DNA of 215 nt. Source: Escherichia coli. Lineage in GTDB: Bacteria; Pseudomonadota; Gammaproteobacteria; Enterobacterales; Enterobacteriaceae. Numbering within the stretch: position 1 is the stretch's first letter; each line of letters starts with the position of its first letter. The stretch lies in assembly GCF_003334335.1 (NCBI RefSeq), contig NZ_QOWQ01000243.1; one strand, given 5' to 3'. Positions 1-215 of the stretch are shown here, piece by piece. The notes beneath the pieces are model-generated. The model did not search any database, was not told where the DNA came from, and saw only the letters and a program-made list of their open reading frames with translations. Both the position numbers and the translations under genes were made by a program.

Positions 1-215
1 ACGGAATTTATCCGTGAAGGTGTGGGCGTTCATGCGTTTAACGGCGAAATCTTTGTGCAGCCGGTCTGGGATACGGAAACCACGCAGTTATTCCGTACGC
101 GTTTTAAAGCCGTGAGTCCGAAACGGGTGGACACGCCTGGACACGGTATGGGGAACCGTTTTCTGCGGGCCGGTGTGGAGGTCGATCGATATGGCCGTGC
201 CGTCGCGTACCATAT
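1..215 (+). CDS. Phage portal protein, lambda family (gpB homologue); internal fragment, partial at both 5' and 3' ends, codon phase 0 at nt 1
   Basis: Seen in sequence: frame +1 is open across the full window (71 codons plus 2 nt), while frames +2 and +3 contain stops (e.g. TGA at nt 14-16 in frame +3 and TGA at nt 113-115 in frame +2). Translation: TEFIREGVGVHAFNGEIFVQPVWDTETTQLFRTRFKAVSPKRVDTPGHGMGNRFLRAGVEVDRYGRAVAYHI. Established knowledge, recalled from memory and not database-verified: lambda gpB contains a segment of the form IREGVAMHAFNGELFVQATWDTSSSRLFRTQFRMVSPKR...RAGV, which aligns colinearly with this translation at roughly 55-60% identity. The matches are strongest in IREGV, HAFNGE, FVQ, WDT, LFRT, VSPKR and RAGV. 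Codon usage (cgt, ggc, gtg, ccg, gaa, aaa) is typical of enterobacterial genes. Confidence 0.85.

What the first reader, a model, noticed from the sequence alone, without database searches (positions are those of the whole stretch)
124..215. Second half of the fragment is more diverged from lambda gpB than the first half and contains a short imperfect tandem repeat
Residues 1-41 (nt 1-123) align to my recalled lambda gpB with frequent identities. From about residue 42 (VDTPGHGMGNRFL...) the match becomes sparser until the RAGV motif, and this segment looks like a variable stretch. Within it, nt 128-137 (tggacacgcc) and nt 138-147 (tggacacggt) form an imperfect tandem 10-bp repeat sharing tggacacg, encoding D-T-P-G-H-G. 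This may reflect a small duplication or slippage event in a variable loop. It is most likely ordinary sequence variation among portal homologues.
Basis: partly seen in the sequence, partly recalled or inferred. Interest (0 to 1): 0.15.

Follow-up and report, generated by a model that had tools for sequence, protein, structure and literature searches.

The report
Phage 21 portal gene, ordinary variation
The window is a known piece of the phage 21 portal (head-entry) gene; its second half changes faster among close relatives because it holds a short variable loop of the portal's wing domain, and the 10-base 'repeat' there is a coincidence of codon choice, so the finding is ordinary.

Summary
The 215-nt window is 100% identical to codons 132-202 of the phage 21 portal gene (gene 4, the lambda B homologue). 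Matching copies at 80% identity or more occur in 1860 of 5426 complete E. coli genomes.

Window aa 1-41 are 66% identical to lambda gpB and aa 42-71 are 33% (Fisher p=0.009). tggacacg occurs twice, 10 nt apart, at nt 128-147.

The "variable stretch" reading holds only at short range. The first half is better conserved in 82 of 87 relatives at 60-95% identity. In 113 of 122 deep relatives the second half is better conserved. It carries R173, P177, R187, Y201 and G189, one of only two invariant columns in the family. The truly variable part is an 8-residue, fixed-length, ordered loop (residues 178-185, nt 139-162) in the wing domain. dS is saturated and uniform, and dN/dS is about 0.15, so this is weaker purifying selection, not a mosaic junction.

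The repeat is chance. The period is not a multiple of 3, there is no peptide repeat and no indel in any relative. It is eroded by synonymous polymorphism and absent where the same V-D-T-P-G-H peptide uses other codons. About 0.08 such repeats are expected per window.

Verdict: ordinary, already known.

The parts
1..215 (+). Internal fragment (codons 132-202, frame 1) of the phage 21 portal gene (gene 4, the lambda B homologue). It lies in the wing domain.
   Evidence: 100% nucleotide identity to M81255.1 and OL657228.1. Annotated CDS at L001 2824-4416. TIGR01539 portal_lambda E=2e-28 for the fragment and 712.9 bits for the whole protein. PF05136 E=5.7e-100. Wing domain is lambda gpB 24-249 (PMC10721106).
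1..42 (+). Alpha-helix (portal residues 131-145). Well conserved among close relatives, poorly conserved across the deep family.
   Evidence: AF2 model secondary structure, block pLDDT 94-97. Per-residue entropies.
46..114 (+). Beta-hairpin (strands 147-154 and 164-169) with a variable turn (residues 155-161). Contains the conserved G146-E147 just upstream, plus W154 and T164.
124..138 (+). Conserved anchor R173-[VI]-x-[TN]-P177 that opens the irregular coil. R173 and P177 are each present in 95% of the weighted family alignment (>=90% in alignment A1).
128..147 (+). The reported imperfect 10-nt direct repeat (tggacacgcc / tggacacggt). A chance coincidence of codon choice that spans codons V-D-T-P-G-H-G, with the two copies in different reading frames.
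139..162 (+). The truly hypervariable segment: an 8-residue loop G178-F185 (lambda gpB 181-188). Its length is fixed in the enterobacterial clade, and it is ordered in the model.
   Evidence: Per-column entropy 2.2-3.7 bits. No gaps or insertions in 90 near relatives and small insertions in a few deep relatives. 76 distinct versions of the 18-residue segment 173-190 (which contains this loop) among 90 sequences. Block pLDDT 92-94. Lambda gpB was modelled in this region, since only 303-319 and the termini are missing.
166..177 (+). The R187-A-G189-V190 motif. G189 is one of only two invariant columns (with G80) in the 148-sequence family alignment. R187 is at least 90% conserved.
175..215 (+). 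Second beta-hairpin (strands 190-192 and 198-204, cut by the window end) with conserved G196 and Y201. It leads into the capsid-contacting wing loop just beyond the window (phage 21 residues 205-215, lambda 208-218).

Best explanation
The window is an ordinary internal piece of the phage 21 portal gene, which encodes part of the wing domain of a lambda-family portal protein.

The second half looks more diverged from lambda because it mixes two kinds of position. One kind is a few structural anchor residues that almost never change (R173, P177, R187, G189, G196, Y201). The other is a short, ordered, fixed-length loop (residues 178-185) plus hairpin turns, which are under much weaker purifying selection and saturate quickly. 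At short evolutionary distance (lambda, N15, Gifsy-1) the fast positions dominate and the half looks variable. At long distance the anchors dominate and it is the better-conserved half.

The 10-nt repeat has no function and no mutational history of its own. GTG-GAC-ACG-CC (V-D-T-P) and T-GGA-CAC-GGT (G-H-G) happen to share 8 bases in the 21-type allele, in different reading frames.

Shown: identity, family membership, the conservation pattern, the dN/dS pattern, the absence of indels, and the chance level of the repeat. Inferred: that the variable positions are solvent-exposed wing-surface positions. This rests on a predicted monomer model and the published domain map, not on computed accessibility.
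For: Identity and context:
- 100% match to the phage 21 portal gene, which lies between the gpW-like and gpC-like genes, downstream of terminase.
- TIGR01539 712.9 bits against a cut-off of 172.7; PF05136.
- AF2 model, pLDDT 85.6, best structural match lambda portal 8K38 with TM 0.79/0.90.

Rate pattern:
- Identity to lambda is 66% in the first half and 33% in the second.
- The first half is better conserved in 82 of 87 relatives at 60-95% identity. The second half is better conserved in 113 of 122 relatives at 30-60% identity.
- Residues 173-186 rank in the top 10% most variable 14-aa windows in the near family and only at the 51st percentile in the deep family.
- G189 is invariant and R173, P177, R187 and Y201 are at least 90% conserved.

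Selection:
- pS is 0.65-0.8 everywhere along the gene.
- Against Gifsy-1, dN is 0.04 for codons 132-172 and 0.24 for codons 173-202. dN/dS for 173-228 is 0.15.
- The other two identity troughs (residues 285-325 and 495-530) coincide with parts that are disordered in the lambda cryo-EM model (303-319 and the last 20 residues).

Repeat:
- Chance frequency is 3-5% per shuffled window and 0.08 per window in the real genome.
- The motif is not enriched in the genome.
- No RNA structure (z=0.42) and no Rfam match.
- Stepwise point-substitution intermediates are seen: p21 TGGACACGGT, PhiR12_1 AGGACACGGT, P0025 AGGATACGGT.
- The same peptide with other codons shows no repeat (P0007, P0009, P0034).
Against: - Surface exposure of residues 178-185 was not computed, because no coordinates could be analysed.
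- dS is saturated, so it cannot exclude an old exchange of the segment.
- Weaker constraint and partner-driven diversification cannot be separated with pairwise dN/dS below 1.
- DNA-level BLAST alignments to Gifsy-1, N15 and phi80 end abruptly at nt 128-140. Taken alone, that looks like a junction.
Confidence: 0.87

Rival explanations
1. The repeat is the scar of a small tandem duplication or replication slippage in a loop that tolerates it.
For: Two adjacent 10-mers share 8 of 10 bases. They lie partly in the hypervariable loop.
Against: - A 10-nt gain would shift the frame, yet lambda, N15, phi80, Gifsy-1 and all 90 near relatives are colinear with no gap here.
- There is no peptide repeat.
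- The first copy covers the conserved T176-P177 codons.
- The second copy is reached by single point changes that are seen in living alleles.
- A synonymous T/A polymorphism at nt 138 already breaks it in 48 of 80 close relatives.
- The repeat is at chance level.
Confidence: 0.02
2. A mosaic (recombination) junction lies at about nt 124-140, and the second half was imported from a more distant portal lineage.
For: - BLASTN alignments to Gifsy-1 (nt 1-140) and to N15, phi80 and mEp237 (nt 10-128) stop at this point.
- Portal genes of this group do recombine internally. Natural 21/lambda chimeras have a crossover at codons 270-276.
Against: - Synonymous divergence is equally saturated on both sides (pS 0.70 versus 0.77 against Gifsy-1).
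- The drop is graded and is seen against 82 of 87 relatives, whatever their lineage.
- The loop comes in 76 versions rather than a few discrete allele classes.
- The anchor residues are retained.
- The BLAST stop is explained by nonsynonymous change added on top of saturated synonymous sites, which pushes nucleotide identity down to 42-64%.
Confidence: 0.05
3. The fast-evolving wing loops (178-185, and 205-215 just beyond the window) are partner-specificity surfaces. They co-evolve with the capsid, scaffold or protease proteins, or with terminase or gpW, so their divergence is adaptive rather than neutral.
For: - Lambda gpB loop 208-218 (phage 21 residues 205-215) morphs to fit the coat protein at the symmetry mismatch (PMC10721106). 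It lies in the same identity trough, 171-225.
- dN/dS is 7-8 times higher here than in the neighbouring segment.
Against: - dN/dS is still about 0.15.
- Natural prophages combine the complete 21-type N-terminal wing (codons 1-270) with lambda-type C, D and E genes. This argues against a strict match between this segment and the capsid proteins, although the viability of those prophages was not tested.
- No direct contact data exist for residues 178-185.
Confidence: 0.1

Closest known systems
Phage 21 gene 4 product (portal protein; M81255.1 / OL657228.1 UMO75419.1)
   Same: Identical over all 215 nt. Same gene order: terminase small subunit, terminase large subunit, gpW-like, portal, protease/scaffold, decoration protein, major capsid protein.
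   Different: Nothing. The window is this gene, or one of its many identical prophage copies in E. coli.
Lambda gpB portal protein (PDB 8K38, 8K39, 8XOT, 8XOW; Pfam PF05136, TIGR01539)
   Same: 60% identical overall, colinear across the window, and the same predicted fold (TM 0.79/0.90). Same wing-domain location.
   Different: 33% identity in window aa 42-71. The 8-residue loop is GHGMGNRF in phage 21 and NNTGDSRN in lambda. Lambda has no DNA repeat at this position.
Gifsy-1 portal (STM2606) and Salmonella/Citrobacter relatives
   Same: 83% identical protein with the same R-V-D-T-P-G start of the segment and the same length.
   Different: The loop is Y-A-R-G-N-R-Q. The second 10-mer is GGGGTATGCC, so there is no repeat.

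Membership tests
Lambda-family phage portal protein (Pfam PF05136 Phage_portal_2 / NCBIfam TIGR01539 portal_lambda) | Profile-HMM match above the curated cut-off | tested here: met
   The whole phage 21 protein scores 712.9 bits against a cut-off of 172.7 and covers 457/457 of the profile. PF05136 E=5.7e-100. The 71-aa window alone matches profile positions 103-173 with E=2.1e-28 and 99.1 bits. That is below the whole-protein cut-off only because it is a fragment.
Lambda-family phage portal protein | Canonical portal fold (wing, stem, clip, crown) | tested here: met
   AF2 model with pLDDT 85.6 and pTM 0.81. Best Foldseek hits are lambda portal 8K38_A (E=6.8e-58, TM 0.79/0.90) and then the phage Chi portal 8VHX. 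This rests on a predicted structure, not a solved one.
Lambda-family phage portal protein | Gene position in the head-assembly operon: after terminase and the gpW-like adaptor, before the gpC-like protease/scaffold | tested here: met
   Annotated order in OL657228.1 and M81255.1. The same order is found in Gifsy-1, N15, phi80 and PhiR12_1.
Lambda-family phage portal protein | Forms a dodecameric ring at one capsid vertex and passes DNA | not testable with these tools
   Known for lambda gpB from cryo-EM (PMC10721106). For phage 21 it is inferred from 60% identity.
Tandem duplication / slippage product | Length difference (indel of one repeat unit) relative to homologues | tested here: not met
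   No gaps or insertions at residues 173-202 in 90 near relatives. The codon alignments are colinear in nine phages and prophages.
Tandem duplication / slippage product | Repeat compatible with the reading frame, or a peptide repeat | tested here: not met
   The period is 10 nt. Copy 1 is read as (V)DT(P) and copy 2 as GHG.
Tandem duplication / slippage product | More similarity between copies than chance gives | tested here: not met
   3.4-5.3% of shuffled windows reach the observed run. 0.08 such repeats are expected per window from the real genome. TRF finds nothing.
Functional DNA/RNA motif (binding-site pair or RNA element) | Conservation at nucleotide level beyond what the protein requires, motif recurrence, or a stable structure | tested here: not met
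   Synonymous changes erode it. The motif occurs only twice in 42.9 kb, against 1.3 expected. RNA fold z=0.42. No Rfam match at E<=1.

The most novel reading that the evidence does not exclude
The hypervariable, fixed-length wing loop (residues 178-185), together with the adjacent capsid-contacting loop (205-215), could be a specificity surface that has to match a partner encoded upstream (terminase or the gpW adaptor) rather than the capsid proteins. The natural 21/lambda chimeras hint at this. They always keep portal codons 1-270 with the 21-type terminase and gpW, and they switch to lambda type at codons 270-276, ahead of the C, D and E genes. Nothing here excludes it, but simple physical linkage and a crossover in the most conserved stretch of the gene explain the chimeras equally well.
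Probability: 0.07. Interest if true: 0.3.

Novelty: already known. Interest (0 to 1): 0.04.

Why it matters
It matters very little. The fragment is a long-sequenced gene of a classical phage. The uneven divergence is the normal pattern of conserved anchor residues and fast-changing loop positions in a structural protein, and the repeat is a coincidence.

The one useful lesson is methodological. A segment that looks 'variable' against one close homologue can be the better-conserved segment across the family, so pairwise identity to lambda alone is a poor guide to constraint.

Tried and rejected
- Tandem Repeats Finder and the generic repeat finder on the window found nothing at nt 128-147.
- Rfam scan at E<=1 gave no match.
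- RNA folding of nt 100-180 was no more stable than shuffles.
- A genome-wide search for TGGACACG in phage 21 showed no enrichment.
- The mosaic-junction idea, raised by BLASTN alignments ending at nt 128-140, was rejected after the sliding dN/dS analysis showed uniform, saturated dS and the drop proved graded and lineage-independent.
- A length-preserving 'templated replacement' of 10 nt by a copy of the preceding 10 nt was considered. It was rejected because intermediate alleles differ from phage 21 by single point changes.
- Gu et al. 2024 (J Virol, PMC11092355) on portal-vertex morphing could not be read because it is not held. No coordinates were available, so solvent accessibility and contacts of the loop were not computed.
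- The cluster of six linked substitutions at nt 78-93 turned out to belong to a generally more diverged allele class (PhiR12_1-like), not to a clear conversion patch.

Full report
**What the window is.** Frame 1 of the + strand is open across all 215 nt and encodes TEFIREGVGVHAFNGEIFVQPVWDTETTQLFRTRFKAVSPKRVDTPGHGMGNRFLRAGVEVDRYGRAVAYH. The three short ORFs in other frames are chance ORFs of 33-41 aa. Megablast finds 100% identity to the portal gene of Escherichia phage 21 (M81255.1, OL657228.1) and to several newer lambdoid phage records. At 80% identity or more, copies occur in 1860 of 5426 complete E. coli genomes, with up to five copies per genome. In OL657228.1 the window is nt 3217-3431 of the portal CDS 2824-4416, which makes it codons 132-202 of a 530-aa protein. 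That gene sits between the gpW-like adaptor gene and the gpC-like protease/scaffold gene, downstream of the two terminase genes.

Family membership is unambiguous:
- The whole protein scores 712.9 bits on TIGR01539 portal_lambda, against a cut-off of 172.7. The 71-aa fragment alone gives E=2e-28.
- Pfam PF05136 gives E=5.7e-100.
- The nearest solved structure by sequence is lambda gpB (8K38 and six other entries), aligned to gpB residues 136-205 without gaps.

**Checking the divergence claim.** A full-length alignment of phage 21 and lambda is 60% identical. Window aa 1-41 are 66% identical, aa 42-71 are 33%, and the stretch RVDTPGHGMGNRFL before the RAGV motif is 21%. The contrast between the halves gives Fisher p=0.009. 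The trough extends beyond the window to about residue 225. It is one of three troughs in the protein; the others are at 285-325 and 495-530. At DNA level the same boundary shows up independently. BLASTN alignments to Gifsy-1 stop at nt 140, and those to N15, phi80 and mEp237 stop at nt 128. Nucleotide identity falls from 63-81% in nt 1-123 to 42-64% in nt 124-215.

**Is it a 'variable stretch'?** I collected 84 near-full-length relatives at 60% identity or more and 122 cluster representatives at 30-60% identity, then aligned them.

- In the near set, mean column entropy is 0.94 bits for residues 132-172 and 1.39 bits for 173-202. Residues 173-186 are among the 10% most variable 14-aa windows. 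The first half is better conserved in 82 of 87 relatives.
- In the deep set the pattern reverses. Entropy is 2.54 versus 2.17 bits, and the second half is better conserved in 113 of 122 sequences, with mean identity 38% versus 23%.
- The reason is visible per residue. R173, P177, R187, G196 and Y201 are conserved in 82-95% of sequences.
- Between these anchors, residues 178-185 (window nt 139-162) are hypervariable, at 2.2-3.7 bits per column. The 18-residue segment around them has 76 versions among 90 sequences. The length never changes in the enterobacterial clade, and only a few deep relatives have small insertions.

So the segment is a fixed-length hypervariable loop set in a strongly conserved frame. 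It is not a generally variable region.

**Structure.** An AlphaFold2 model of the phage 21 portal built on the family alignment has mean pLDDT 85.6, with 92-97 across the window. Its best structural matches are the lambda portal (8K38_A, TM 0.79/0.90) and then the phage Chi portal. The window comprises:
- a helix (residues 131-145),
- a beta-hairpin (147-154 and 164-169),
- an irregular coil (170-189) that contains the variable loop,
- a second hairpin (190-192 and 198-204).

The published lambda structure assigns gpB residues 24-249 to the wing domain. It reports that loop 208-218 (phage 21 residues 205-215, just past the window) morphs to fit the coat protein. It also reports that only residues 303-319 and the termini are disordered (PMC10721106). 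The other two identity troughs therefore coincide with disordered parts, and the trough studied here coincides with ordered loops of the wing domain. I could not compute solvent exposure, so surface location is inferred.

**Constraint or mosaicism?** Sliding Nei-Gojobori estimates show that synonymous differences are saturated and roughly uniform along the gene, with pS about 0.65-0.8 against both Gifsy-1 and lambda. Nonsynonymous divergence rises from 0.04 (codons 132-172) to 0.24 (173-202) against Gifsy-1, and from 0.30 to 0.76 against lambda. dN/dS for 173-228 is about 0.15. Three points favour weaker purifying selection over a recombination junction or positive selection: the drop is graded and lineage-independent, the loop does not fall into discrete allele classes, and the anchor residues are retained. 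Saturated dS means an ancient exchange cannot be strictly excluded.

**The repeat.** nt 128-137 (tggacacgcc) and 138-147 (tggacacggt) share an exact 8-nt run at period 10.

Statistically it is unremarkable:
- 3.4-5.3% of shuffled windows contain a run at least as long at periods 4-15.
- The real 42.9-kb phage 21 genome has 16 such repeats, or 0.08 per 215 nt. The only 11-nt cases are the annotated attP subsites.
- TGGACACG occurs nowhere else in the genome, against 1.3 expected.
- TRF is silent.

Mechanistically a duplication does not fit:
- Ten is not a multiple of three.
- The copies are read in different frames (GAC-ACG gives D-T; GGA-CAC-G gives G-H).
- There is no peptide repeat.
- No relative differs in length here.

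Evolutionarily the repeat is not maintained:
- In 80 loci that are 98-100% identical at protein level, nt 138 is a synonymous T/A polymorphism (32 T, 48 A). That shortens the run to 7 nt, and further variants break it.
- Alleles one or two point mutations away are PhiR12_1 (AGGACACGGT) and P0025 (AGGATACGGT).
- Relatives encoding the same V-D-T-P-G-H peptide with other codons (P0007, P0009, P0034) have runs of 3 nt or less.
- Gifsy-1, lambda and N15 have no repeat.

There is no RNA structure (z=0.42) and no Rfam match. The repeat is a coincidence of codon choice in one allele.

**Comparison with the known, and verdict.** The window is a member of, and in fact identical to, a known gene of the lambda portal family. 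Every testable defining feature was met: HMM score, fold and gene position. The features that would define a slippage product or a functional DNA motif were tested and not met. The 'variable loop' idea needs narrowing to residues 178-185, and the duplication idea should be dropped. Interest is very low.

**Seen in passing.** Several E. coli portal proteins (P0018, P0019, P0021, P0022, P0025) are natural 21/lambda chimeras. In locus L089 every diagnostic site is 21-type up to portal codon 270 and lambda-type from codon 276 onwards. The upstream terminase and gpW genes are 21-like and the downstream C, D and E genes are lambda-like. The crossover lies in the most conserved stretch of the gene. 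This shows that the 21-type N-terminal wing, including this window, coexists with lambda-type capsid genes, which weighs mildly against strict capsid matching of the variable loop.

Noticed in passing
L089 7001-8593 (also L090, L091, L094); proteins P0018, P0019, P0021, P0022, P0025: Natural chimeric portal genes in E. coli prophages. They are 21-type (98-100% identical) through codon 270 and lambda-type from codon 276 on. Upstream terminase and gpW are 21-like, and downstream C (439 aa), D (110 aa) and E (341 aa) are lambda-like. The single clean crossover lies in the most conserved stretch of the gene (the stem helix). P0018 alone was read on 13 contigs.
   Followed up: yes
P0048 (507 aa): A protein that is phage 21 portal for about 370 residues and then unrelated. 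It carries Ail/Lom (PF06316) and OMP beta-barrel (PF13505) Pfam hits. It looks like a deletion fusion in a decaying prophage, or an assembly or annotation artefact.
   Followed up: no
L002 (M81255.1) 2990-4582; P0078; P0075: Legacy naming slips that have propagated. M81255.1 labels gene 4 (the portal) as 'head-tail preconnector gp5', the same label as gene 5, and a Shigella homologue carries that name. A Cedecea neteri portal homologue (65% identical, PF05136) is named 'plasmid partitioning protein ParB'.
   Followed up: no
window 78-93: Six linked substitutions within 16 nt (A78G, C80G giving T->S, G87A, T88C, A90G, C93T) in 20 of 80 near-identical loci, and also in PhiR12_1 and ECO111 5-P. 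Carriers are more diverged over the whole N-terminal part of the gene (3-6 differences per 100 nt, versus about 1.5). It therefore marks a second allele class rather than a clear conversion patch.
   Followed up: partly
window 1-215 versus E. coli genomes: This portal allele is very common. Matches occur in 1860 of 5426 complete E. coli genomes, with a median of 2 and up to 5 copies per genome. Seven of the 2974 copies are on plasmids.
   Followed up: no
L092 27565-27599 (phage 21 attP): In the genome-wide scan for short adjacent repeats, the only 11-nt exact cases were the annotated attP subsites (TTCCCCAAAAC, three copies). This served as a positive control showing that the scan can pick up functional repeats.
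   Followed up: partly
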